Under the pieces are notes generated by a model. That model was not told the origin of the DNA. It saw only the letters and a program-made list of their open reading frames with translations, and made no database searches. From Paraspadella gotoi (lineage: Eukaryota > Animalia > Chaetognatha), in assembly GCA_051294375.1 (NCBI GenBank), contig CM119267.1:1-47876 (forward strand): a DNA stretch of 47,876 bases, in the 5' to 3' direction. How positions within the stretch are numbered: the first letter of the stretch is position 1; the number at the start of each line of letters is the position of its first letter. This document shows positions 7,148-43,634 of this stretch, one piece after another. The translations under genes were made by a program, and so were the position numbers.

Positions 7148-7189
7148 AAAAAAAAAAAAAAAAAACCCGACCGGACGGATTGATATTAA

Positions 7190-8015
7190 TGAAATTGGTA
7201 CAACTAATATAAAAATTATCCATTCATATTAATAAATCAGACTATCTTGCCCCTGACTTTGGACAGGCTTTGGTGGTTTAAGGCCTCCATCACTCTTACA
7301 AGATAATGACATATCAGGTCCCTGCAAGCTTTCAATCAAGACTCTCTCAGTCTCGTTTATTTCACTCCCAGAGTACCTGGCTTCCCTATCAATGAAGTGG
7401 TATAATATTCAAGAATGTTTTCAATTGTATGAAAAGACCACTCCCTTAAGTATTAGATCGGGGAATACTTATTGTACTCCGCACTAGTCAAAATACAAGG
7501 AGCTGAATTTTTATGAAATTGGTACAACCAATATAAAAATTATCCATTCATTTTAATAAATCAGCTATCTTGCCCCTGACTTTGGACAGGCTTTGGTGGT
7601 TTAAGGCCTCCATCACTCTTACAAGATAATGACATATCAGGTCCCTGCAAGCTTTCAATCAAGACTCTCTCAGTCTCGTTTATTCACTCCCAGAGTACCT
7701 GGCTTCCCTATCAATGAAGTGGTATAATATTCAAAGAATGTTTCAATTGTATGAAAAGACCACTCCCTTAAGTATTAGATCGGGGAATACTTATTGTACT
7801 CGCGCATTAGCATCAAAATACAAGGAGCTGAATTTTATGAAATTGGTACAACCAATATAAAAATTATCATTCATTTAATAAATCAGCTATCTTGCCCCTG
7901 ACTTTGGACAGGCTTTGGTGGTTTAAGGCCTCCATCACTCTTACAAGATAATGACATATCAGGTCCCTGCAAGCTTTTCAATCAAGACTTCTCTCAGTCT
8001 GCGTTATTCACTCCC
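7190..8015 (+). repeat. Tandem repeat, about 324-bp unit, about 2.6 copies; possible Helitron-type array
   Basis: Units start TGAAATTGGTACAAC at about 7190, 7514 and 7838; each full unit has hairpin TAAGTATT..AATACTTA, followed in the first unit by CTAG|TC. Confidence 0.85.
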
Positions 8016-8029
8016 ATTCACAACATTTA

Positions 8030-13824: not shown

Positions 13825-14436
13825 TAGAGTATAGATGAAAGTTACAGTACGAAAATTCTAAATTGTCAATTTATGAACGAACATACCATCATTGACATTT
13901 TATTTGAAGAAAAAAAATTAATTTATGTTGCTTACATTTTTGCAGGAGGCTATATTTATATTTGTACTCATCCTTATAAAAGATCGAAAAATTTAAAATA
14001 GCCTTTTCTTAATTATTTGATTGTCAGATTTGAATTCCTCGTCAAAAGTTGATAGAAAGAAAAATATAAATCATTTACAAAATTCTTTTCATTAAGTCGG
14101 TTAAATTTAAAAAACTAATTTAATAATAATTATTTTGCATATTTTTTCTATTGATAATTGAAAGAATTTTAAAAAAAGAGTTTATTTTCTGTTATATCAC
14201 ACTTTTCATGCGAATCCAAATCTGGTAAATATCTTACAAAAAACTATTTGAAATTTTTAACAACTTATTGGATTAGTACTAGTAGTAAATGAATCGAATA
14301 TGGCCCTACTGCGTTAAATGTTAATATAAATTATGAAAATTTTTTATAACGTAATGTTCTCTAGTATATGTTGATTCGTTCCTTCACTTTCTAGAATTTG
14401 GTAATTAAAGTTAAATTTAGAATTTGCTACTCTTTA
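13825..14436 (-). mobile_element. Roughly 600-bp MITE (TAAGGCGTAGTGAAA-type ends), degenerate copy
   Basis: Reverse-complement match to the bodies of 18715-19856 and 21664-23511. Confidence 0.75.
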
Positions 14437-16478: not shown

Positions 16479-18714
16479 TCTCCATATTTTCTCTATTTCC
16501 CTTCTTTCTCCTTGTTTTGGGGGGGGGGGTGGGGAAAAATTTTTTCTTCTTTCCTCCCTCTCTCTCTCTCTCTCTCATTACTCTCTTTCTCTCCCTCTTT
16601 CTCTATCTTTCTCGTCTCCACATGAACCTAATTTATTTAATTTATTTCATTAACTTTTAAATTAATCTTTTTATCACAAACATTAAAGATGATTGTCTAT
16701 CTTTCTTATAATCCATTACCTGTCTAACTACAGAATAATTAATTTTCTCAATTGTTTCTTTATTAATTGGCAAATGTTTTTTATTCACATAATTTCTTCA
16801 TTTATCAAACCAAGGTCAAATTAAAATCCAGGAAAATCCTTTTTTGTTACATGTAATTATTAAATCGGAAAAATACGCAGTATTCTTAAAAAGTTAACAA
16901 AATAAAAATAGCTGGACCAAATAATAACACAAAGCAAATTACATTATATTTTTCAAAAAGCTCCGGTTTAATGATTTGTATAAATTCCCCCATTTTTTTT
17001 GAAAAATAATTTATAACTTGTTCACTATTTTTTCTCACAAACTTAGATGTGTGTATTCTTTTATTTTGACCAGAGCAAAGGGTAATAAGTTCATGAAACT
17101 CTTTAACAAAAAGATATTTCGGCGCATATTTTTCGTGTTCTGAGTACCTAAGACTTAAGTCTCTATATGTAGTCAATTCTGAATATTCTAAGATCGAAGA
17201 AAGATAATCATTCAGGATTAATTCGTTTTTCGGAAATAGCAAAACCTCAAAAAGTTTACAAAAAATTAGGTGGAATGATATAATAATTAAAATACATAAC
17301 ATTTTTTTGTATGGTCTTAAATTTTTTATCTGAGATACAAAAAGTTTAAAGAGAACAACAAAAATAAAAGAATATATTTCAAAAAAATTTTCATTAATAA
17401 ATATTATGTAAAGTAAATTACTAAGAATATCATGCCTTGAACCATAGCTCATGGTTGTAGTAGAATTACAAATTTGAGAAAAATAAGAAGTGGATATAAT
17501 TTTTATATCGTTGATCCATTGTTTATAGTAAATAAAGAAATATGAACAAAAAAAATAAAACAAAACAAAAATTAAAAAAAATATTTTGGTTCTGAATATT
17601 TTCATTGAAACTTTGTTTAAAAATGATGAAAGTATAATAAAAATTATTAGTAAAAAATAATTGGTGAAAAGGTTAAAAAACATGTTAATTTTTTGGTGCG
17701 ATTTTATTAAAATTTTGTCAAATCTTGGTGGAGAAATATTTAATGATCTTTTATCATTGAAAATTAAAAATCTTGAACTTGTGAAAAAAAGTGGAAAATT
17801 TATATTATATTTCGCATACATTTGACGCATCAGGTTCTGGAGATTTATAAGTCTTGTAAAGTAAAACAAATTAATATAAAGAACTGATATCAGAAAAAGC
17901 TGTAATGCTAGTATAAAAATGTATTTATGAAAAAGTTTCATAAGTATAATGTTTGACCAAGTATGTATCAAGCACAATAATAAGTCTATAATAACGAGAA
18001 TCATTATCATTCCATAATCAGGAGAGAGAAACAAATAATTCCCAAGTTTGTTTTCTTCCAAAAAATTCCTGTTTTTATAATATTTATTAAATGTTTTCAG
18101 TTGCTCTATATTTTTTATACAATACTCTTCAGTTTTATATTTTCCATTGAAGGAAAGAACTTTTTCCCATTGGTTCTTGTTACTAAGGATTCCTTTTATT
18201 ACAATGCATTTACTTCCATAGATTTTATTTTCTATACCATACCGGATAATAATCAGTTTTATGATTGGATCCAATTTTTTGATAAATTTAGAGACTCCCC
18301 AAAAGCCATTCTGGCTAAAAATTATATCACTAATTTTGTTGTGCTTATCAAAAAATAATAACAGGGACACCATCAAAAAGTTAAGAGCAGGCAATGTTGC
18401 TAAATCCAAAAAATCTATTTTGTTTTTATTTTTATTTTGAATTAAAAAATTTTTCTTTATATTTTTAGCAATTTGTATGAGTTCTAAGGTGTAAAGACCC
18501 TGAGAATCATTTAGCGGAGTGAGAGTTTTCAAACCAAACAGAATATGTCACTGATTTCCAGTTTAAAAGATAGAGAAAAAGTGTTGAGCCATAAATAGCC
18601 TGAATAATTCCAAAAAATGAGCTGATTGAATTCAAGAAGCAAAATAATTTCCATGAAAAAACTGGTTTTGAGTATCGAAAATAGATAGCAATCTTGGAAA
18701 TGCTAAAGGTGAGA

Positions 18715-21400: not shown

Positions 21401-22089
21401 TTTATTATGATTATAATCATTATTTTAAATGATTTTATTGTGAAATTTTTATTTTTAATGATTTAATTCCTTTCTTTAATAAACATTTAGGGATACGACA
21501 CTTAGTTTTTCTATTATTAATCCTATAGAATCACTTGGAACTAGGCATGGGGGTTGCTTGGCTCCCAAGGGACTTAAGCCTGTTCCCATAGTGTAGATTG
21601 CTCCTGGTCACAACTTAATTTTTTGGCAGGGTGAACCTGAGCAATTCTTGATACATATCTAATTAAAGCATAGTAAAAATTCTAAATTTAACTTTAATTA
21701 CAATTCTAAAAGTGAGGAACGAATAACATTATACTAATGAACATTAACGTTAAAAAAAATTTATATTAAATTTTACAATTTACGCAGTAGGCCATATTTA
21801 TACTAGTACTAATCCAATAAATATTAAAAATTTCAAAATAGTTTTTTGTAAGATATTTTTACAGATTTGGATTCGTCATGAAAAGTTGATATAAAGAAAT
21901 ATAACTCTTTTTTAAAAATTCTTTCCTTAAGTTGATCAAATATAGAAAAAACTATATTTTAAGCTGAAAAAAAATTTTATGTATTAAATGTAGTTTTTTT
22001 AAATATTTAACCCACTTAATGAAAGAATTTTTAAAAATGATTTACGAGTGAAACGAAAAATTCGTCTGTAATAGCAATTTTATTTTTAT

Positions 22090-22139
22090 TATGTACAGTT
22101 TCGACTCTTAGTTTTTGCGAGTCGCTTCATCAGCAAGTG
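22090..22139 (-). ncRNA. Minimal hammerhead ribozyme, left arm (small indels)
   Basis: Reverse complement of 23133-23182. Confidence 0.6.
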
Positions 22140-22174
22140 AATTCAATAGCGCAAAAATTTTTAAACATTAGTTT

Positions 22175-22205
<31 letters not shown>

Positions 22206-22932
22206 TTTCCAACAAAGAATTGAGCAAGGATAGTGGTCAGATGTGAGGACAGGTGAAAGTAGGGAAAGAGAGAGTATGATTTTTTGAAATTGGTGAAAAG
22301 AAAAGAGAGAGAGAGAGAGAGAGAGAAGAGAGACCACAGGGATCAATACATTAGGCAATGTACAACAGTGAAAAATTTTTTTTTAGAAAAACTAAATATT
22401 TAACAAAAGTAATAATAAATTAATTGTTAGCTGATGATTGTTAGTAAGAGAAAATGAAATAGAAAGAATAAGTGATGAGGGATAGATAAGTTAAAGATTA
22501 AGTGAAATAGTAAGGTAAGAAAAAAGAGCTCAAAAATGAGCTGGCCCCCCCCAGCCGGGCAAATGTGGGACGTTAAGATGTAGTCGGGTCATTGGCCTGT
22601 CATAGGCTGAGATGATATTGTGGTGGAATGGGACAGGGCTGGATCTGGTAAATGATCCGGCTGAAAAATGCCTAGTGCCACTCGAATATCTCTCTGACCT
22701 GATAGGCCTGCGAAGGGCCCTCCTCTCACCTGACGGTGAGGTGGCGATTGCCTGTTCGGGCCTGTTTGGGGACAGGTGATACAGACTCCTTCCGTCCTCT
22801 TTGTAGCTGTCGTTTTGGGCGACGCTTCAGCACGAGAAGAGTCGCGCCAAGTTGCTGCAAGCTCGGTTGAGGCATCGACGTCCATATGCCTGCTGAGAGG
22901 CCTCCGCCTGACCCGTTGAGTGAGGACAGGGG

Positions 22933-22968
<36 letters not shown>

Positions 22969-23132
22969 CTTTTCAACCAATTTCAAAAATCATACTATCT
23001 CTTTCCCTACTTTCACCTGTCCTCACATCTGACCACTAATCCTTGCTCAATTCTTTGTTGGAAACTCTGCTCATCTCGTCTATTCTCTCTCTCTCTCAAA
23101 CTAATGTTTAAAAAATTTTGGTCTATTGAATT

Positions 23133-23182
23133 CACTTGCTGATGAAGACTCGCAAAAACTAAGAGTCGAAACATGTACATTA
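23133..23182 (+). ncRNA. Minimal type I hammerhead ribozyme
   Basis: CTGATGA-A-GACTC(GCAAAAACTAA)GAGTC-GAAA-CATG-TA; palindromic stem III; stem I weak. Confidence 0.75.
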
Positions 23183-23699
23183 ATAAAAATAAAATTGCTA
23201 TTACAACGAATTTTTCGTTTCATCTCTAACTATTCTAAATAGGCAAAAAAGAAAGTCAAAATACAATGTCTAAAAATGATTTATATTTTCTTTCATCAAC
23301 TTTTGACGAGGAATTCAAATCTGCAATCAAAATTAATAAAAACTTATTTTGAAAATTTTTTTCGATTTATAATGATAGTACTAAATATTAATATAGCTCT
23401 GCAAAAATTTAAGCACACAAAATTAATTTTTTTACAAAATAATAATCAATGATGGTATGTTGTTCATAATTGACATTTAGAATTTTCTTACGTAACTTTC
23501 ACTACGTTCTAATATCTATATCTATAGCCTCCTAAATTAAAATTTTCTTGTTTACTAAAATGTATTTTCTTTTTTTTCTCTTTCAAATAACTTATAATTT
23601 TTAGTAAAAGATTATTTAAGCCTACAAATTATAATTAGTAAATCGGCTCTGGAGACATAAAAAAGACTGAATATCATGAATAGAAAGAAATATCCAACT

Positions 23700-26253: not shown

Positions 26254-29200
26254 AAAAAATATTAAAAAATAATATTTGGGTATAGCAGCCCTATAGAGCC
26301 ATATAAAACAATTGTTATTACATTAAAATACTTTAAAAATGCCATACAATTTTTCGTTTTGGAGCATGTTTCGCTAAGGTACGTAGTAAAGTTACATACG
26401 AAAAATTCTTAAGTCAATTATGAAACAACATACCATCATATAATTTTCGCTGTAGAGTAGCTATAGTATATATAGTATTATCCTTATAAAATCGAAAAAT
26501 TTCAAAAATAGCTTTTTTAATTTTAATTGCAGATTTGAATTCCTCATCAAAAGTTGATAGAAGAAAATATAAATCATTTTTTAAAAATCTTTCATTAAGT
26601 GGTTAAAAATTAAAAAAACTATTTTAATATATAAAAAGTTAATTTTTCAGCTTAAAATATAGCTTTTTCTAATTTTTGACCCACTTAATGAAGAATTTTT
26701 CAAAAAGAGTTATATTTCTTTATATCAACTTTTTATGACGAATCCAAATACTGCAAAAAATTTCTTAGAAAAGAAAAAGAAGCAGGACAACGCTGCAGAG
26801 GCCGGAACTCGTTTTTAGGCAAATCAGAAGAAGCTTGGTGAATCGGAGAAAGAATCATTAAAAATGGCAGACGCGAAAATTGGAATCTATTAATAACTAT
26901 GATTGATATGTCATAAGTATTATCTAGCTTGTAATTATTATAACATCGGCTTGCGACTAACCTGTTATGTGTATGTTTGAGACGAGGAAAATTAAGGAAG
27001 AGAGAGAGAGAGATAGAAGAGGAGACTTGCTATGCTTTTGCCAAAGCGCATTTCGGATAACTTTTCAACCATTTGTCCACATCATGACTGATTCAATTTA
27101 TTAAATTCCTAAATCGGAGAATTTTGTTCAAAACTTTTGCCGATGGCCCTTGGAATTTTAGCACGTGGAAGCGACCATCAATTTACGACATAATTTATAT
27201 ATATTTAAAAATACATGCCAACTTGATATTTAGCCGATCTGCTACAGACAGATCTCAGCTCATAATTCACTTTTCTTCGATCTGTCAGTCGCACACCATT
27301 ATTCTTGTCGGTCGGTCGGGTCTGCGTTCAGTCACTTAATCATCAAAAACACTCGGAATAAATAGAAAATACAATTTTGACAAACAATATCGGATCTGCC
27401 TCCAATAATTAAGCGGTAATACAGTGATAATAAAATCACGGTAATTTTTTTTATTACTTTTAATTTGTGATCCACTAAGCAAATTCATGGTTCAGATATT
27501 GAACTCCAAAAATTACTTCTGAACTATGAGCATTAAAATGCAGGAATGTTTATAATTTTTAAGGAAATCAAATTTTGGATTTTTAAAGATCATCTTAGAG
27601 TTATACGCATTATTCTTTAATATTAATAAGTGGTTTAATTAGACTAAAATCAATCATATCGATGAAGCATTTTCTTTTTAGAATAAACATAAATCTAAAG
27701 ATTATATTTTGCTTATTAAGATCTATCAGATTCATAAAATAAATATCCAAAAATACATAGAATAATTTTTAGCGAACTCTTCGGCATTTTGAAATTTAAA
27801 CAATTCATATGGATATAAGCCCTAAGATTTCACCTTCCGTAATATTACAGACTTTAAAAAATTTGAATCTATAAATCAATTTAATCACTCATATTTGTAT
27901 TACATTTTTGCTAATTTTGATAATTGGGTCACTTTGGCATAATTGGTCAACTTGCTCCATTTAATCAATTGGCATAATTTAATCAACTTGCATATTTGCG
28001 TCAACTGCGGCATTTTTGGTCAAACTGACATAATTTTTCAACTGGCATAATTGATCAACTTTCAAAATTGGTTAAGACGGAATAATTTGTCAACTGCATA
28101 ATTTGGTCCTCCGGCATAATTTGTCAACTGAAATAATTTTCATGAATGGCATAGTTGCTTATTTGACGTTAATTAGGACAACTGGTATAATTGAATAGAT
28201 TGCGTATAATTGGTAGACTGGCATAATTTGGTCAATTGACGTAATTTGGTCAAACCGACATAATTGGTCAATTGACTTAAATTGTTGACTGGCATTAATT
28301 TGGTCAAGTGGCCATAATTTGGACAATGGCATAATTTGGACAACTTGTGCATAAATTGGACAACTTGCCTAAATGGTAAACTGACATAATTTGCTTAACT
28401 GACATTAATTTGCTCAAACGGCCAATAAATTGGTCAGCTGGCATTAATTTTTATCAACCGCATAATTTGGGTCAATTGATCTTAATTTGGTCAATTTCAT
28501 AATTTGGTCATTGGCATAATTTTCAGACTTGCTTAATGGTCACTAAATGGTCACTCTGACATAAATTACTCAACGGCATATTGCTCACCAGTATAATTTG
28601 GTTAACAGCATAAATTTGCTCAATTGCAAATTTTATCAACTGGCATAAATTGATCAACTTGCAGTAATTTGGGTCACTGAATAATTTGGTCAACTCGGCT
28701 AATTTAGTCAATCATTGCATCAATTCAATCAATCAATTAGAAGAGATATTACATTTTGGATTTAAGTTATTTTTGTTTGAATTTCCACTTCATTATGATT
28801 TTACGCAATATGCAAATGAAGATATAGTACTCATTTTATAATATCAAATTATAATATAAGAAAGCTTATCGTACATTAACATATTTGAGGTATAAATATT
28901 GAAGATGAAATTCAAAATTTTTCTTTAAATCTATAATAAAAATGGGAAATCAAAGCCTTTTAATGAGAGCTATATCTTAATTTTAATACAATAAAAAATA
29001 AAATACAAGCTATGATTGGAAACAATTGTAAACAATTTCCAATTTTAAACCAATTGTAACATTTTTTCTTCTTTTATTTCTTTAAATATTATGTATTTTT
29101 CTTCCCTATTTTGTCAGTTGCTGCCTCTTCTGAACCCTTTAAAAACGAGTTCAGGCTTGCAGTGATTGTACAACTGCCCTTCCAGCGGCTTGTCAGCTTT

Positions 29201-32200
29201 TCTCTATTTCTCTTCTCTGTCTCTATCATGTCTCTTTCTTTCTCTTCTGTCTCTCCTGCTCTCTGTTTCTCTCTCCCTCTCTCTGCTACGGATCTCTCGT
29301 GCGCGATCGTTTTTTGAAACAATTTTGATATATTTTTCCTTTTAAAAAATTTTATTATCGCAATTTATTCTGCGCTTTTTTCTCAATGCAAAATCCCAAA
29401 TTTACATCCGAGATTTCGTGGATATTCTCTTACTTTCTCTCTCTCTATTCTTTCTCTCTCTCTCTCTTTCTCTCTCTTTTCACTCATACACGCATTTTGT
29501 CTTGTTTTATTTATGATGAATGATTCATTGCGTCAATGAATGACTATCATCTGCATCAATGAGATGACTATTCATCCATTCAATGAATGACTTATCAATG
29601 CACATCATGATACTGCATTGATAAATTGTTATTATCACTTCATCATTTTGTTATCATCACATCGATCATTGGTTATATCGCCATCAATTATTGCGGTTAT
29701 CATGCGCATCATTATTTGGTTATCATCGCATCAATCACTTTGAGTTATCATCGCATCTCAATCCTTTGGTCTATCATCGCANNNNNNNNNNNNNNNNNNN
29801 NNNNNNATTTGAATCTTCTTTTAAAAATAAAAAATTCCAAAAAAAAAATTTTGACATTTCCTATCTATAAAAAAAATTAAAAAATTAATTACTAATTCTT
29901 CTTGCCATTTTAAAAAATTTTGCTCCATTGAAAGTTTTCTCAGAAATGTATGAAGTTTCATTTGGAAAGGTTCCCAAATCAAACTTCTGACCCACCCCAT
30001 TGACGAAGTTTGGCTCTAGTGTTGAGATCACAAATTAAAAGTAAAAAAAAAATTACCGTGATTTATTATCACTTTATTACCGCTTAATTATTGGAGGCAG
30101 ATCCGATATTGTTTGCTCAAACTTGTATTTTCTATTTATTCGATGTTTTTGATGATTAAAGTGACTGACCAACCGACCGACCGACAAGATAATGGTTGGC
30201 GACTGACAGATCGAGAAAGTGAATTATAGAGCTGAGATCTGCTGTAAGCAGATCCGGCTAAATATCAAGTTGCATGTATTTTAAATATATAAAATTATGT
30301 CGTAAATTTGATGTCGCTTCCCACGTCTAAAAATTCCAGGGCCATCGGCAAAAGTTTTGACAAAATTCTCCGCATTTAGGAATTTAATAAATTGAATCAG
30401 TCATGATGTGACAAAATGGTTGAAAAGTATCCGAAATGCGCTTTGCAAAAGCAAGCAAGTCTCTCTCTCTATCTCTCTCTCTCTCTCTTCCTTAATTTTC
30501 CTCGTCTCAAACATCACATAACGAGGTTAGTCCCAGCCGTTGTTATAATAATTACAAGCTAGATAATTACTTATGACATATCAATCATAGTTAATTAATA
30601 GATTCCAATTTTCGCTCTGCCATTTTTATGATTTCTTTCTCCGATTCACCAAGCTTCTTCTGATTTGTCTAAAAACGAGTTCCGGCTCTGCAGCGTCTGT
30701 CCTGCTTCTTTTTCTTTTTCTAAGATTTTTTTGAGTTTGAGTTCGCATGTATGATTGCATACTCTTTTAAAAACTTCTTCATTAAGTGGGTCAAATTAGA
30801 AAAGCTATATTTTAAGCTGAAAATTAACTTTTTATATATTAAATATATTTTTTTAATTTTTAACCCACTTAATGAAAGAATTTATAATATTTTATATTTT
30901 CTTCTATCAACTTTTGATGAGGAATTAAATCTGCAATTAAAATTAAGAAAAGCCTATTTTGAAATTTTTCGATTTTAATAAGGATAATACTACGCGAAAT
31001 TTAATGATGGTATATTGACAAGATGGTTGAGAAAAAATTTTTATTTCGGTTTTCGGGCCTTTTTATCTTCCTTACCACTGAGTCAGTTCATATTCAATTG
31101 AAAATATATTGTTTGCCTTTGAATTAATTTTAAAATTGAACTAGTCAAAAACTCAACATTTTTAGTTATTTATTACAATTTGTTAAAAACAAAAAAGTTT
31201 GATTTACTTACAATTCTAGGCAAATATTCCTATTCAACCGAGCTTCCAACACCTAAAAAATTATGGAAATATTCAATACTTTGGTAAAATTTAAACCGAC
31301 TTTTATATTTGTGAGGTATATTTTTTTTAAAACTAAAACTCGTTTTTTAACTAATTTTATAGTTTCATCAGATGAGAAATGCACTTATGTTCAAGTTTTA
31401 AAAAAAAACCGCATTCTTTTAATGTCATGGGAAGCTTCAGGACCTTTTTTTCTTCCATCGACACGTTTTTGCGGAAAAAATTTCCGCAAAAATCTGTCGA
31501 TTTTTAAAATCTGCTAGGCAACCAAACTTCCGCTAAAATCTTGCACTCCCTATTTTTTTCTTACAATACATTTGAAAGATTTGAAAATTAGTGAGAAGAG
31601 AAAAAGATAAGAGAAGCAGAGTATGGGTGAAAAAAAAGGGGCAGGGAGAGGGAGAACAAGTGAAAAATTATTATATGGGGAGAAGATGGAGAATGAGAAT
31701 GATTAAAGAAAAGAAAAAACAAGAAAGAAGGAAGAAAGAGAATCAGAGAGGGAAGAGAAGCAGAGATAGAGCGGAAGGGAAATAAAGGTAAAGGAAGAAA
31801 AGAATGGATGACACAGATAATTATGAGGAGAGAAAGTAAGAGAAAGGGAGAAAGACAGAGAGAAAGAGAGAGGGACAGAGAGAAAGTTCAAAAAGAGAAA
31901 AGTAAATAAGAAAAGGAGTAGAAAAAAAGGAAAAGTTTTATACTATAGCATGCCGTTTTTTTGCCTAAGCAGTACTATATCTAAAATATGTGACAGATCT
32001 TACGAGCAATTTAATCTCTAAAAGTTGATCTTACCATGAAAAATCGTTTTTAGTTTCTTCTTAATTAAGGATGATACCGTATTTGGAATGATTGTCGTAA
32101 AAGAAATCATGTCTTACCGTATTTTTCATGTAAAAATGTGAGATGGAATGGAATCTTTTAATCTTTTAACCTTTTGACGACGACGACAACAATCAAGAAA

Positions 32201-36026: not shown

Positions 36027-38105
36027 TTAAAAAGATAACAAAATAAAAATAGCTGGACCAAATAATAACACAAAGCAAATTACATTATATTTTTCAAAAA
36101 GCTCTGGTTTAATGATTTGTAAAAATTCCTCCATTTTTTTTGAAAAATGATTCATAAATTTTTCAGTACGTTTTCTTGCAAACTCATATACATGTAGTCT
36201 TTGATTTTGACGAAAGCAAATGGAAAGAAGTATATGAAAATCTTTAACAAGGAGATATTTCGGCGCATATTTTTCGTTTTCTGAGTATGTAACAATTGAA
36301 CTTGCACTATATTTTAAATTTTTTGGGATCAACAAAATATAATCATTTAGGATTATTTTTTTTTTTGGAAATAGCAAAACTTCAAAAAGTTTACAAAAAA
36401 TTAGGTGGAAAGATATAATCATTAAAATACATAAGATTTTTTTGTAAGGTCTGAAATTTTTTATCTGAGATACAAAAAGTTTAAAGACAACAACAAAAAT
36501 AAAAGAATACATTTTAAATACATTTTCATTAATAAATATTATGTAAAGTAAATTACTAAGAATATCATAACTAAAACCATAGCTCATGGTTGAAGTAGAA
36601 TTACAAATTTGAGAAAAATAAGAAGTGGTTATAATTTTTAAATCATTGATCCATTGTTTATAGTAAATAAAAAAATATGAACAAAAAAAATAAAACAAAA
36701 CAAAAATAAAAAATGTTATTTTTGTCCTGATTATATTCATTGAAACTTTGTTTAAAAATGATGAAAGTATAATAAAAATAACTATTAAAAAATAATTGGT
36801 GAAAAGGTTAAAAAAAATGTTAATTTTTTGGTGCGATTTTATTAAAATTTGGTCAACTCTTTGTGGAGAAATAGTTAAAATATTTAATGATCTTTTTCCA
36901 TTGAAAATTAAAAATCTTGAACTTGTGAAAAAAAATGGATAAAATAAGTTATTTTTCAAATATATTTGACGCGTTAGGTACTGGAGATTTATATGTCTTG
37001 TAAAGTAAAACAAATTAATATAAAGAACTGATATCAGAAAAAGCTGTAATGCTAGTATAAAAATGTATTTTTGTAAAAGTTTCATAAGTATAATGTTTGA
37101 CCAAGTATGTATCATGTATAATAATAAGTCTATAATAACAAGAATCATAATCATTCCATAATCAGGAGAGAGAAACAAGTAATTCCCAAGTTTGTTTTCT
37201 TCCAAAAAATTCATGTTTTCATAAAATTTATTCAATGTTTTCAGTTGCTCTAAATGTTTCATACAATACTTTTCAGTTTTATATTTTCCATTGAAGGAAA
37301 AAACTTTTTCCCATTTGTTCTTATTACTTAGGATTCCTTTTATAACAATGGTTTGAAATTTATAGTTTTCATTTTCTTTAAAATAATCGATATTAATAAG
37401 TTGTACATATGGAGAAAAATTTTTGATAAGTTTAGAGACTCCCCAAAAGCCATTCTGGCTAAAAGTTATGTCACTAATTTTATTGTGCTTATCAAAAAAT
37501 AATAACAGGGACACCATCAAAAAGTTAAGAGCAGGCAATGTTGCTAAATCCAAAAAATCTATTTTGTTATCATTTTGCTTTTGAATAAAAATATTTTTCT
37601 TTATATTTTTAGCAATTTGTATGAGTTCTAAGGGTGTAAAGACCCTGAGAATCATTAGCGGAGTGAGAGTTTCAAACCAAACAGAATATGTCACTGATTT
37701 CCAGTTTAAAAGATAGAGAAAAAGTGTTGAGCCATAAATAGCCTGAATAATTCCAAAAAATGAGCTGATTGAATTCAAGAAGCAAAAGAATTTCCATGAT
37801 AAAATCGGTTTTGGGTATCGAAAATAGATAGCAATTTTGGAAATGCTAAATGTGGAGACCGCTATTGAAATTAAATCAAAATATGATTTGATTGGCCAAC
37901 TGCATTGAAACTGCTGATTAATTACATCTGGCCAAACATTAAACTTTTTAGTGCCAAAAAATTGTAAACAGTCACACTTTTGCTTGGTTTTCATTAATGT
38001 ATTGTTGATCAGAGCAAAAACTAGGCCTCCATTTTTGCTGAATTTTCCTTTCATGTTCTTTGCTGGTAAAAGGCTTGATCGTTGAGGAATGCACAACTCT
38101 GACAA
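36027..38105 (-). CDS. XK-related multi-pass membrane protein copy B, large 3' coding block (692 open codons)
   Basis: Long ORF with many TM helices; DLISIAVSTFSISK resembles the XK helix that follows ExPQ; the upstream segments carry the XK motifs. Confidence 0.75.
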   Translation of the reverse strand: MSELCIPQRSSLLPAKNMKGKFSKNGGLVFALINNTLMKTKQKCDCLQFFGTKKFNVWPDVINQQFQCSWPIKSYFDLISIAVSTFSISKIAIYFRYPKPILSWKFFCFLNSISSFFGIIQAIYGSTLFLYLLNWKSVTYSVWFETLTPLMILRVFTPLELIQIAKNIKKNIFIQKQNDNKIDFLDLATLPALNFLMVSLLLFFDKHNKISDITFSQNGFWGVSKLIKNFSPYVQLINIDYFKENENYKFQTIVIKGILSNKNKWEKVFSFNGKYKTEKYCMKHLEQLKTLNKFYENMNFLEENKLGNYLFLSPDYGMIMILVIIDLLLYMIHTWSNIILMKLLQKYIFILALQLFLISVLYINLFYFTRHINLQYLTRQIYLKNNLFYPFFFTSSRFLIFNGKRSLNILTISPQRVDQILIKSHQKINIFFNLFTNYFLIVIFIILSSFLNKVSMNIIRTKITFFIFVLFYFFCSYFFIYYKQWINDLKIITTSYFSQICNSTSTMSYGFSYDILSNLLYIIFINENVFKMYSFIFVVVFKLFVSQIKNFRPYKKILCILMIISFHLIFCKLFEVLLFPKKKIILNDYILLIPKNLKYSASSIVTYSENEKYAPKYLLVKDFHILLSICFRQNQRLHVYEFARKRTEKFMNHFSKKMEEFLQIIKPELFEKYNVICFVLLFGPAIFILLSF

Positions 38106-38536
38106 AGAAAGCCTTACTACAGTTTATCACACAAAATCATTTTAAATACAAATATATGCAAGACTAAGGATTTTTCTATATTAATAATTTGGTAAGATTT
38201 TTCTTATTTGCAGACATCCAACCTCCACATGTCTCTTTTAGAATTGTCATGAAAATTTAAAATGATTTATACTGTATATGACCATATTTTGACAATTTTT
38301 TTTAAGAATTAAGTTAGGGCTATATGGTAGGGCAGAGAGGATGTAAAAAAAAGAAAAAGTGCCATCTCTGAAACCATAAGACAAAATGTGGTAGGTCAGC
38401 AAAATTCAATAAACGCAGGATTTTTTCAAAGGCTAATTAAAGTTTTCTAATTTAAAAAAAAATACTTTCATAGTTTTGGTGAAGTCGGAATCTGCTGATA
38501 AGCAGATCCGACTAAAAAACAAATGCGTGTGTGAGT

Positions 38537-38904: not shown

Positions 38905-40353
38905 TTAGTCGGATCTCCTTATCAGCAGATCCCGACTCTATAATTCACTTTGTCAGTCCGTCGGTCCGCCCCCTCAATATTGTCGGGCACTAACTTATAT
39001 CATGTCAGAACATCGAATTATGATAAATTATGCAAAAAAAATGATATCCGTCCGTCTGTCCGTCCGTCCGTCCGTCCGTCCCACCTTAGCAAAAAACACC
39101 AATTACTCGTGATTGGATGGATGGATTGGAATTAAATTATGTGTGTGGGTAGGGAAGTGTGTGATTGAGCTGTATATGAAGTTTTGATGGAATCGTTTGA
39201 CTGGAAATGAGTTTAAATGGAAAAAATAAAAAAATAACTTTCACTATTTGAACACCAATTACTCAAGAGTGGATGGGGCGATTGACTTGAAATTTTGTAT
39301 TTGGGTAGGAAAGTGTGTGATTGAGCTGGAAATCAAGTTTCGATGGAATCGTTTGAGTGGAAATGAGTTTAATTGGAAAAAAATAAAAAACCTGTTTCAC
39401 TAATTGATTATGCTTCTTTTTCCTTTTATATTAAATGTAAATGAAGGATGTATTAATAAATAAAATAATTATCAGTTAATTAATTAATTAGTCAATCAAT
39501 CCGTCCATCCGTCACATCTTAGCAAAAGCTCCAATAACCGTGATTGGCTTGGTTGGATGCAATGAAATTTATGTTCTGGGTTTTAGGACAGTGTGAGATG
39601 AATGCGATATAAAGTTTCGATGGAATCGTGCAAGTGAAAATGAGTTTAAATGGAAAACACATAAGTTGCCATTTACTAAATATCTTTTTACTTATTTTAA
39701 CCCATAATTACTCGAATTAATCATAATTGAATTAATAGATTGACAAGGAAAGTGTGTGAAGAAGCTAGATATAAAGTTTTGACGGAATTGTGCCAGTGGA
39801 AATGAGTTTAAATGGAAAAAACATAAGTCACATTTACTTGAATCTTTTTTATTTATGATTACTAATAAATGTTTATAATTAATATTATATAATTTGAAAA
39901 AATGATACAATTTAAAAAAATTATGCAAGTTGAAAAATTAGCAAGTTGAAAAAAATATGCAAGTTGAAAAAATTATGCAAGTTGAAAAAATTATGCAATT
40001 TAAAAAATATGCAAGTTGAAAAAATTATGCAAGTTGAAAAAATTATGCAAGTTTGAAAATTATGCAAGTTAGAATATGAAGTTAAAAAATTATGCAAGTT
40101 GAAAAAATGATGCAAGTTGAAAAATATGCAGTTAAAAAAATGATGCGAATTGTAAAAATGATGTAAATTGAAAAAAATGATGAGTTGAAAAATTATGTGC
40201 GTGGAAAAAATTATGCGAGTTGAAAAATGATGCGAGTTTAAAAATGATGCGAGTTAAAAAAAATTTTAAAAAATATTGTGATTTATCATCTGATTAGCAG
40301 ATTACCGCTTAATTATTATAGGCAGATCCGACATTGTTTGCTCAAACTTGTTT
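38905..40353 (+). mobile_element. Full-length DINE-1/HINE-like (non-autonomous Helentron) element
   Basis: T-rich flanks; 5' subTIR plus inverted repeat hairpin AGTCGGATCT..AGATCCCGACT; (GTCC/GTCT)n; roughly 140-bp central repeats; (GCAAGTTGAAAAAATTAT)n; 3' subTIR GCAGATCCGAC followed by hairpin GTTTG-CT-CAAAC. Confidence 0.8.
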
Positions 40354-41494
40354 ATTAAAAATATGGTTCTACGTAGTTGGTTGGCGCCGCCATAAAATTG
40401 AATGAAGGTCTGTTAAGGTTAGGGGATATGATCCTTCACCTCATTGGCTAGCAGGTATGTCTCTACCTCCACACGGTGCTTGCGGTAACATCCTTTTTGG
40501 ATGGAAAAAGAAGGCTCAAGCAAACATGGAGAAGGAAAAGCCAAAAGACGAAATCCTGATCTGTTTCTTGGGTAACGGAGTGGGTCGGGCCCAGCCAACC
40601 TAGTCATGTGTCACTTCCCCCCTCTTCCTTCACTTCCCATCCTTTTCCTCCTTTCCCCCCTTCCCCTTTCTCCTTCTATCTTTCCCCACCCTTTTTAAAC
40701 AACATTCTGGCTGCAGCCTCTCAAAGAATTGTTGTCTGCCATCTGAGACAGCTTTGAGAGAGAGGTAGTCTCTCGTTGGACAAATGAGTCAATTAAACCC
40801 ACGAAGATTATGTAAGGCAAACGCGATGATGAGACCAAAGGTCCTGCTACGTCGGGTTTGGAATCTGCCGAGTTGGCTGTAAATATAAGGGAGGGAACCC
40901 TTGAAGAGGTTGCCAATCTATCAATAAAATCCGCAACACACGCTGCCAACCACGAGGATGAGGAGTTAAACACTGGACATTTTGGACAACCTCTTGGGCG
41001 CCCCACCTGAAAGGCCAGGTGAGGCACCTTGTCAGGCGTTTTTATTTCTTGCAGTGGGCGGGCAACATGGTTATTAAATCATGAACATTTAGCGGGATGA
41101 TTCCCCTTGTTCTAGAATGGACACTACAGCCTTAATTCCCTCTCTTTGCTGATTTCGGACCTACAACATTAGGTGTCATATGGGATTTAATAGGTTTCAG
41201 AGGTGGCACTTTTTTATTCCTTTCACAGTACTCTCTGCCCTAACGGGGTTAAAGATTAGGTTAGTATTCGAGATTTATTTTGGGATTAGGGTTAGAAATT
41301 AGGTTAGGGATTTTGGAAAAGAATTAGAATTGAGGGTTTAAGGAATAAGGTTATGTATAATGGTNNNNNNNNNNNNNNNNNNNNNNNNNTTTAAATGGAA
41401 ACACTGTGTTTTTCTTCCTTTCTGTTTCGCTTGTGATTTGATTTAGAACAAAGTTTGAAGAGGAGATTTAATCAACGATATTTTATTTCATAGA

Positions 41495-41541
41495 TGAAAC
41501 GGACATGTTTCGACTCACCATACGAGTCTTCTTCAGCGCCA
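41495..41541 (-). ncRNA. Minimal type I hammerhead ribozyme
   Basis: CTGAAGA-A-GACTC(GTATGGT)GAGTC-GAAA-CATG-TC on the minus strand. Confidence 0.8.
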
Positions 41542-41542
41542 A

Positions 41543-41592
41543 TGGCGCTGAAGAAGACTCGTATGTTGAGTTCGAAACATTGTCCGTTTCAC
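41543..41592 (+). ncRNA. Minimal type I hammerhead ribozyme, mirror copy (two extra T)
   Basis: CTGAAGAAGACTCGTATGTTGAGTTCGAAACATTGTC followed by AATAAA. Confidence 0.65.
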
Positions 41593-43634
41593 TATGAAAT
41601 AAAAATGTGTCTAAATCTCTCTTCAAACTTTGTTCTACAATGGGAAAACACATAAGTTGCATTTACTAAAATCTTTTACTTATTTTAACCATAAATACTC
41701 TATTTTTTCATAATTTGGATGGATATTTTGAGTTGAAATTTTGTGTGTGGGTAGAAAATGTGTGACGAAGCTTGATAAAAGTTTTGGTGGAAACGTTACG
41801 AGTAGAAATGAGTTTAAATTAAAAAAATATGGGTCACACTTTACTTGAATATTTTTGCTTTCACGATCTTGTTAGTCCTGCAATGTTACTTATTTTAACC
41901 CATAATTACTCGAATTAATCATAATTGAATTATAGATTGAAAAGGAAAGTGATGTGAAGAAGCTAGATATAAAGTTTTGACGGAATTGTGCCAGTGGAAA
42001 TGAGTTTAAATGGAAAAAACATAAGTCACATTTACTTGAATCTTTTTTATTTATGATTACTAATAAATGTTTTAAATAATTAATTAATTAATTTGAAAAA
42101 ATGATACAATTTTAAAAAAATTATGCAAGTTGAAAAAATTATGCAAGTTGAAAAAAATATGCAAGTTGAAAAATTATCAAGTTGAAAAAATTATGCAAGT
42201 TGAAAAAATTATGCAATTTGAAAAAATTATGCAAGTTGAAAAAATTATGCAAGTTGAAAAAATTATGCAAGTTGAAAAAATTATGCAAGTTGAAGAAATT
42301 ATGCAAGTTAAAAAAATGATGTGAATTGTAAAAATGATGTAAATTGAAAAAATGATGAGTTTGAAAAATTATGTGCGTGGAAAAAATTATGCAAGTTGAA
42401 AAAATGATGCGAGTTTAAAAAATGATGCGAGTTAAAAAAAATTTTAAAAAATATTGTGATTTATCATCTGATTAGCAGATTACCGCTTAATTATTATAGG
42501 CAGATCCGACATTGTTTGCTCAAACTTGTTTATTAAAAATATGGTTCTACGTAGTTGGTTGGCGCCGCCATAAAATTGAATGAAGGTCTGTTAAGGTTAG
42601 GGGATATGATCCTTCACCTCATTGGCTAGCAGTATGTCTCTACCTCACACGGTGCTTGCGGTAACATCCTTTTTGGATGGAAAAAGAAGGCTCAAGCAAA
42701 CAAGGAGAAGGAAAAGCCAAAAGACGAAATCCTGATCTGTTTCTTGGGTAACGGAGTGGGCGGGCCCAGCCAGCCTAGTCAGTGGTCACTTCCCCCCTCT
42801 TCCTTCACTTCCCAATCCTTTTCCTCCCTTCCCCCCCTTCCCCTTTCTCCTTCTATCTTTCCCCACCCTTTTTAAACAACATTCTGGCTGCAGCCTCTCA
42901 AAGAATTGTTGTCTGCCATCTGAGACAGCTTCTGAGAGGTAGTCTCTCGTTGGACAAATGAGTCTTAAACCCACGAAGATATGTAAGGCAAACGCGATGA
43001 TGAGACCAAAGGTCCTGCTACGTCGGGTTTGGAATCTGCGATGTTGGCTGTAAATATAAGGGAGGGACCCTTGCAGAGGTTGCCAATCTATCAATAAAAT
43101 CCGCAACACACGCTCTCTGCCTTCCTCCAATCGGCGCTGCCAACCACGAGGATGAGGAGTTAGACACTGGACATTTTGGACAACCTCTAGGGGCCGCCCC
43201 ACCTGAAAGGCCAGGTGAGGCACCTTGTCAGGCGTTTTTATTTCTTGGCAGTGGGCGGGCAACATGGTTATTAAATCATGAACATTTAGCGGGATGACTT
43301 CCCCTTGTTCTAGAATGGACACTACAGCCTTAATTCCCTCTCTTTTGCTGATTTTACGGACCTACAACATTAGGTGTCATATGGGATTTAATAGGTTTCA
43401 GAGGTGGCACTTTTTTATTCCTTTCACATACTCTCTGCCCTAACGGGGTTAAAGATTAGGTTAGTATTCGAGATTTATTTTGGGATTAGGGTTAGAAATT
43501 AGGTTAGGGATTTTGGAAAAGAATTAGAATTGAGGGTTTAAGGAATAAGGTTATGTATAATGGTTAGGTATCAGATTAGGGATTTATTAAAAGATTAAGG
43601 TTAGATACCACAGCGATAAAATTAAGTTCAGGAA

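What the first reader, a model, noticed from the sequence alone, without database searches (positions are those of the whole stretch)
22045..23270. A second, sequence-distinct element with the same twin-hammerhead inverted architecture
Seen: 290-bp inverted arms that mimic DNA-transposon TIRs, each with CUGAUGA-A-GACUC..GAGUC-GAAA-CAUG-UA and a downstream AATAAA. One arm is 45 bp longer and the TSD is a perfect 13 bp. The arms share only the ribozyme core and the GACUC/GAGUC stem with the 41.4-kb element. Inference: two independent events with the same geometry (outward-facing ribozymes, asymmetric extension, 12-13 bp TSD) point to a common integration mechanism such as twin priming or template switching, possibly a class of fold-back ribozyme retroelements usually mis-annotated as MITEs.
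Basis: partly seen in the sequence, partly recalled or inferred. Interest (0 to 1): 0.85.

Follow-up and report, generated by a model that had tools for sequence, protein, structure and literature searches.

The report
Head-to-head Penelope retroelement stub
This 1.2-kb insertion with mirror-image ends and a hammerhead-ribozyme motif is real, but it is likely an ordinary truncated, head-to-head landing of a Penelope-like jumping gene, a layout already described in print, rather than a new class of element.

Summary
Real insertion, known kind. Arms 22045-22333 / 22935-23226, a 44-nt one-sided extension and a perfect 13-bp target duplication are there; 3 of 5 paralogues of the host repeat show the clean empty site. 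Only the right arm has an intact hammerhead core; the left has a 2-nt insertion and a 1-nt deletion, possibly assembly noise. The core is more widely shared than its flanks. Inverted 5'-truncated pseudo-LTR, one-sided tail of 30-40 nt, target duplication and minimal hammerhead are the published layout of Penelope-like element (PLE) insertions (PMC8557442, PMC3846280); opposite-strand hammerhead pairs 100-700 bp apart were reported in 2014 (PMC4209133). Most likely mechanism (inferred): both target nicks prime cDNA on the element's 3' end at two start sites, and the two truncated cDNAs join head to head. No RT or endonuclease was found, so PLE membership is not shown at protein level; the 600-bp interior is multi-copy and unidentified. 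The scan found this layout before in at least 5 other genomes.

The parts
22032..22044 (+). left copy of 13-bp target-site duplication TAAAAATGATTTA
   Evidence: single copy in empty paralogues at 14067, 19617, 26570
22045..22333 (-). left arm: pseudo-LTR-like 3' end of the element, RNA sense on minus strand, no tail; begins in a (CT)n run
22094..22133 (-). left minimal hammerhead motif, damaged as assembled (+2 nt before stem II, -1 nt in the palindrome); predicted cut 49 nt from the left end
   Evidence: no contig of 4 runs was laid on 22085-22198 (a hole proves nothing)
22334..22535 (-). AT-rich (25% GC), pyrimidine-rich on minus strand, likely 3' UTR continuing the left arm
   Evidence: covered by high-depth contigs; weak joints 22260>22464 and 22265>22469 with sides of 24-29 nt
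22536..22934 (-). GC-rich (57%) multi-copy interior, unidentified; possible coding remnant on the minus strand
   Evidence: no Pfam family; only two spurious tandem-repeat hits among 1.84 billion proteins
22935..23226 (+). right arm: inverted, 5'-truncated second copy of the same 3' end, starting in the (CT)n run
23139..23177 (+). intact minimal type I hammerhead motif: CUGAUGA, extra A, 5-bp stem II with G-C first pair, GAAA, palindrome ACAUGU, predicted cut after GUA, 2-bp stem I (extendable by 6 bp past a bulge)
   Evidence: features as listed in PMC4209133
23182..23187 (+). AATAAA after the predicted cut site; in AT-rich DNA, no weight on its own
23227..23270 (+). 44-nt one-sided tail; long end 93 nt and short end 49 nt beyond the predicted cut
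23271..23283 (+). right copy of the 13-bp target-site duplication
21677..22044 (.). left half of the AT-rich, partly palindromic host repeat that was interrupted (right half 23271-23507)
41405..41637 (.). comparison element: hairpin of two ~95-bp arms, 1-nt loop, 39-nt left tail, imperfect ~12-bp TSD, intact hammerhead motif in the tailed arm only
   Evidence: empty paralogue at 39648

Best explanation
The 1,226-bp insertion carries the same hammerhead-bearing 3' end twice, facing outward, between a 13-bp target duplication, and is likely a truncated head-to-head insertion made by a Penelope-like retrotransposon enzyme that would have primed DNA copies from both nicked target strands. Steps: (1) an element-encoded GIY-YIG endonuclease supplied in trans nicks both strands of AT-rich DNA 13 nt apart (stagger shown by the TSD; enzyme inferred); (2) each 3'-OH primes reverse transcription on the element RNA's 3'-terminal region, one at the proximal start site (49 nt past the hammerhead cut, left end) and one at the distal site (93 nt, right end), which gives the one-sided 44-nt tail (positions shown; cause inferred from PMC11167929); (3) both copies stop early, about 890 nt on the left and 336 nt on the right, the latter in the (CT)n run, and are joined (inferred; which copy is the long one rests on weak evidence). 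The product is built at landing, codes for no complete protein and is likely a dead end: a read-through RNA holds only one sense ribozyme, predicted to be locked by the antisense arm.
For: Insertion with TSD shown by empty paralogues (3 of 5 clean) and by a skip in 4 of 4 runs. Ends not flush with the arms. Minimal hammerhead with the extra nucleotide, G10.1-C11.1 pair and palindrome listed for PLE ribozymes (PMC4209133 parts 1-2). Core shared beyond its flanks: in runs X1 and X9, 37 and 13 contigs go on unlike before 23138 and 39 and 16 after 23176, agreement 0.49-0.55. Same layout with very different interiors: 601 nt here, 1 nt at 41.4 kb, about 10 nt in L003 from another source. Literature: inverted truncated copy plus 30-40-nt tail typical (PMC8557442), TSD 8-10 bp with inverted pLTR and 31-bp tail (PMC3846280), purified Poseidon protein cleaves and extends both strands, prefers AT-rich DNA, has two RT start sites that define the tail, one of them 85-92 nt past the ribozyme cut (PMC11167929). 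38 of 39 core nt pair with the other arm in the predicted read-through fold.
Against: No RT or GIY-YIG sequence was found in the element and no autonomous partner could be sought, as no genome is held. The tail (44 nt) and TSD (13 bp) are slightly longer than the values in the papers read (30-40 nt; 8-10 bp). No contig spans either (CT)n junction because repeats were skipped, so it is not shown that other copies join their arms elsewhere. Only 1 of 3 metagenome loci with the same core has the inverted partner, and no TSD was found there. Cleavage is untested; Rfam does not score the motif.
Confidence: 0.8

Rival explanations
1. Same PLE origin, but the inversion arises by fold-back self-priming or template switching of one cDNA/antisense template, not by priming from both nicks.
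For: Proposed for palindromic inverted junctions in PMC3846280 (Discussion passage); fits the 1-nt-loop hairpin at 41.4 kb and L003.
Against: The 22-kb element has no palindrome at its junction but 601 nt present once, and its two ends differ by a tail, which two start sites explain directly (PMC11167929).
Confidence: 0.1
2. The whole 1,226-bp unit is a fixed non-autonomous fold-back retroelement that is copied as a unit by a PLE enzyme.
For: Arms and interior are all covered by many high-depth contigs; PLE pLTRs can mobilise unrelated DNA in trans (PMC3846280); the junctions of other copies could not be seen.
Against: Interiors differ in each case seen (601, 1, about 10 nt); contigs show many internal deletions and variant subfamilies; a read-through RNA is predicted to be a 280-bp hairpin that buries the sense ribozyme and the priming region.
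Confidence: 0.06
3. A DNA transposon (MULE/Foldback-type MITE) with long TIRs in which the hammerhead-like motif is incidental.
For: Long inverted arms and a TSD; inserted in an AT-rich repeat-rich region.
Against: TSD is not flush with the right arm; TSDs of the two elements differ (13 and about 12 bp; MULE 9-10 bp is recalled, not checked); the ribozyme core is shared across unrelated flanks; no transposase.
Confidence: 0.03

Closest known systems
Complex insertion unit of endonuclease-bearing Penelope-like elements (Penelope/Poseidon, Neptune, Hydra): inverted 5'-truncated pLTR plus one-sided tail (PMC8557442 passages and supplement parts 1, 2, 54 of 59; PMC3846280 passages; PMC2377424 passages)
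   Same: Head-to-head inverted copies of the 3' end, one-sided extension, TSD, hammerhead motif in the repeat; Penelope-13_HM in File S2 has the motif on both strands.
   Different: No RT/EN sequence left; tail 44 nt and TSD 13 bp, a little above the values read; interior not identified.
Minimal type I hammerheads of metazoan PLEs (PMC4209133, parts 1-2 of 4 read)
   Same: Extra nucleotide between 9 and 10.1, G10.1-C11.1, palindromic 15.2-16.2, short helix I; dual motifs on opposite strands reported 100-700 bp apart.
   Different: Here about 1,000 bp apart; helix II 5 bp; one of the two motifs damaged as assembled.
PAc Poseidon element of Anolis (PMC11167929, passages and section 3 part 2)
   Same: AT-rich target, tail between two end points downstream of the ribozyme cut; one start site 85-92 nt past the cut against 93 here and 97 at 41.4 kb.
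   Different: PAc's ORF starts within the ribozyme; no open frame runs on from the motif here. The text read does not say on which side the second start site lies.
L1 twin priming and dual priming (PMC2837659, passages)
   Same: Both target nicks prime cDNA; TSD flanks an inverted structure.
   Different: Twin priming gives two non-overlapping pieces of one RNA; this insertion repeats the same 3' end, as dual priming would. No poly(A) tail.

Membership tests
EN+ Penelope-like element | ORF with telomerase-like RT and GIY-YIG endonuclease | tested here: inconclusive
   No Pfam match for two interior frames; one natural frame gave only spurious hits; copy is short and no genome is held
EN+ Penelope-like element | Inverted 5'-truncated copy giving flanking inverted repeats | tested here: met
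EN+ Penelope-like element | 30-40-nt tail at one end only | tested here: met
   44 nt here, 39 nt at 41.4 kb; slightly above the published range
EN+ Penelope-like element | Target-site duplication of variable length | tested here: met
   13 bp with empty paralogues; about 12 bp at 41.4 kb
EN+ Penelope-like element | Minimal type I hammerhead motif in the pLTR | tested here: met
   right arm 23139-23177; left arm damaged
EN+ Penelope-like element | Partial-tandem direct pLTRs around a full ORF elsewhere in the genome | not testable with these tools
   no genome; arm 23-mer absent from metagenome contigs
Minimal hammerhead ribozyme | Self-cleavage (dimeric or protein-assisted) | not testable with these tools
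   prediction only; two-copy cofold prefers the overlapping palindrome AUGUACAU to the catalytic ACAUGU register
Naiad (N-terminal EN PLE) | ORF ends with RT, no canonical hammerhead | tested here: inconclusive
   an RT-thumb likeness of the interior (recalled motif) got no support; a canonical-type motif is present, unlike most Naiads in PMC8557442
MULE/Foldback MITE | TSD flush with both TIRs | tested here: not met
   44 nt between right arm and TSD
Non-LTR retrozyme | Head-to-tail tandem units each with a hammerhead on the same strand | tested here: not met
   motifs lie on opposite strands, no tandem copy; definition from bioRxiv 10.64898/2026.07.22.740005 part 1

The most novel reading that the evidence does not exclude
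The 1,226-bp fold-back is itself a multi-copy, non-autonomous retroelement that PLE enzymes copy as a unit (a 'retro-MITE'), carrying a captured coding remnant of unknown origin between two outward hammerhead arms.
Probability: 0.06. Interest if true: 0.6.

Novelty: new member of a known kind. Interest (0 to 1): 0.15.

Why it matters
As it stands it is one more footprint of a known class. Its use is modest: how PLEs form inverted insertions is still open (PMC8557442, PMC11167929), and clean cases with an empty site, two measurable end points (49 and 93 nt past the ribozyme cut) and a non-palindromic junction are the kind of record from which dual priming can be told from fold-back priming if tabulated genome-wide. 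It also shows how such stubs could pass as MITEs in automatic annotation.

Tried and rejected
No whole genome held, so no genome-wide table. Rfam at E<=1: no hammerhead family. Single-strand folding z-scores not significant. Arm 23-mer in metagenome contigs: 0 matches. Core pattern: 3 loci; core conservation in L001-L003 is by construction, and 2 of 3 have no inverted partner. No RNA holder listed among 11 runs; two runs guessed as RNA give no evidence on expression. Idea that the interior is an RT-thumb C-terminus without endonuclease (Naiad- or Athena-like; motif likeness recalled from memory): a word-indexed protein search found nothing, and substitutions among family contigs fall at first positions of that frame, favouring another minus-strand frame (15 of 22 shown substitutions in one phase for 22577-22800, p about 0.003, but only if a minority indel is counted; p 0.49 without it, no signal in 22801-22885, rows are the best-supported only and several come from one contig). 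That other frame gave two hits, both translations of tandem repeats. Atlas look-up not answered. ARAGORN: no tRNA head. The supplement of PMC8557442 was read in 3 of 59 parts; Naiad C-termini were not compared. Paper searches found no paper describing a self-propagating fold-back hammerhead retroelement; subscription papers (e.g. Evgen'ev and Arkhipova 2005) were not seen.

Full report
Observation. The window is AT-rich, microsatellite-rich animal-type DNA; no whole genome is held. A local alignment of the two halves gives inverted arms at 22045-22333 and 22935-23226, 280 of 286 aligned pairs identical. TAAAAATGATTTA stands at 22032-22044 and 23271-23283 and is the longest word shared by the flanks. 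The right arm is followed by 44 nt (23227-23270) with no partner on the left. The insertion interrupts an AT-rich dispersed repeat: of 5 paralogues in the window, 3 (at 14067, 19617, 26570) join left and right flank across a single copy of the 13-mer, 2 are consistent but diverged; contigs in 4 of 4 public runs skip the insertion with 10-13 shared letters (these may be paralogues rather than alleles). So this is a real insertion with a real target duplication.

Ribozyme motif. The right arm reads CUGAUGA-A-GACUC-(11 nt)-GAGUC-GAAA-CAUG-UA at 23139-23177. Near-identical repeat pairs in this window differ mostly by small indels (6 substitutions/14 indels here; 3/7, 3/14, 5/7, 11/59 elsewhere), whereas an older duplicate pair gives 67/3 and the L003 arms 19/0; this suggests assembly noise, so the damage may not be real. 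My descriptor, written after seeing the motif, finds 2 sites in the window, one per element, and none in 100 block shuffles. Rfam finds no hammerhead and the folds are not unusually stable, as expected of a motif with almost no helix III. The 22-kb and 41.4-kb elements share only this core.

The 41.4-kb element is a hairpin with a 1-nt loop, a 39-nt tail on the left and an imperfect duplication of about 12 bp with an empty paralogue at 39648. Counted from the predicted cut, the ends lie at 49 and 93 nt (22 kb) and about 55 and 97 nt (41.4 kb; counted by hand). A scan of metagenome contigs for the core gave 3 loci; 1 of 3 (L003) is again a head-to-head hairpin with outward motifs, ends 60 nt past the cut, no TSD found.

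Interior. 22334-22934 is not single-copy host DNA: every bin is covered by contigs, many of high depth, with variant subfamilies and internal deletions (depth is no copy number). It has a 25%-GC part next to the left arm and a 57%-GC part. Weak joints tie the left arm to the interior in other copies (sides under 30 nt), and a post-hoc codon-phase test leans to a minus-strand coding remnant (with the caveats given under Tried and rejected). I therefore read the long copy as the minus-strand one and the right arm as the inverted partner, with low weight. No protein family or relative was found, so what the interior encodes stays open.

What is known. PMC8557442 (passages) describes PLE insertions as often having an inverted 5'-truncated copy that forms flanking inverted repeats, with a 30-40-bp tail often at one end and a hammerhead in the pLTR; its File S2 lists Penelope-13_HM with the motif on both strands. 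PMC3846280 (passages) shows inverted pLTRs with a 31-bp tail and 8-10-bp TSDs, unrelated DNA between solo pLTRs, and head-to-head palindromes. PMC4209133 (parts 1-2 of 4) defines the minimal motif with the same extra nucleotide, G-C pair and palindrome and reports dual motifs on opposite strands 100-700 bp apart. PMC8969392 (passages) lists inverted pLTRs and short 3' extensions in a curation guide. PMC11167929 shows a purified Poseidon protein nicking and extending both strands of AT-rich DNA, with two RT start sites that define the tail, one 85-92 nt past the ribozyme cut, and finds ribozyme cleavage dispensable for insertion in vitro.

Mechanism. The simplest account is dual priming (term from PMC2837659): staggered nicks 13 nt apart give two 3'-OH ends, each primes cDNA on the element's 3' region, one at each start site, and the two truncated cDNAs are joined. 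Stagger, end points and orientation are shown; enzyme, order and joining are inferred. Classical twin priming does not repeat the 3' end. Fold-back self-priming remains a fair rival, better suited to the hairpin cases. The two ribozyme motifs never lie on one RNA strand, and in a read-through RNA 38 of 39 core nucleotides are predicted to pair with the other arm, so the 'twin' layout has no evident ribozyme function; a two-copy cofold also prefers a non-catalytic register.

Verdict. Real, well-formed, and of a known kind. It works like a PLE inverted insertion; membership is likely but not shown at protein level. Earlier scan reports from at least 5 other genomes reached the same reading; they are unchecked notes and were seen after my reading was set down. 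The untested residue is whether this unit ever moves as a whole.

Noticed in passing
window 7183-8016: Three tandem units of about 322 bp, each with a weak type-P5 twister match on the minus strand (25.8 bits, below the gathering score 37.6). An earlier scan note describes a 322-bp twister repeat in this genome.
   Followed up: no
window 26678-27472 and 30026-30792: Another element with long inverted arms inside the same AT-rich host repeat family; no minimal hammerhead found; 59 indels against 11 substitutions between arms.
   Followed up: partly
window 16886-18547 (-) and 36027-38123 (-): Two paralogous intron-free hydrophobic ORFs of 553 and 698 aa in AT-rich DNA, about 89% alike as DNA, no Pfam family.
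   Followed up: partly
window 40697-41364 and 42874-43564: Duplicated GC-richer segment of about 690 bp next to an assembly gap and the 41.4-kb hairpin; no Pfam family in three frames tried.
   Followed up: partly
window 22094-22133, 23139-23177, 41502-41584: In both elements the arm with the tail has the intact ribozyme motif and the tailless arm has indels; 2 of 2 cases, may be chance or assembly error.
   Followed up: no
window 22247-22257 and 22920-22930: The 11-mer GTGAGGACAGG occurs in the left arm and again just before the inner junction; possible role in joining not tested.
   Followed up: no
L003 3037-3394: Head-to-head hairpin with 179-bp arms and outward minimal hammerheads nearly identical in core to the window's, in a metagenome contig from another source.
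   Followed up: yes
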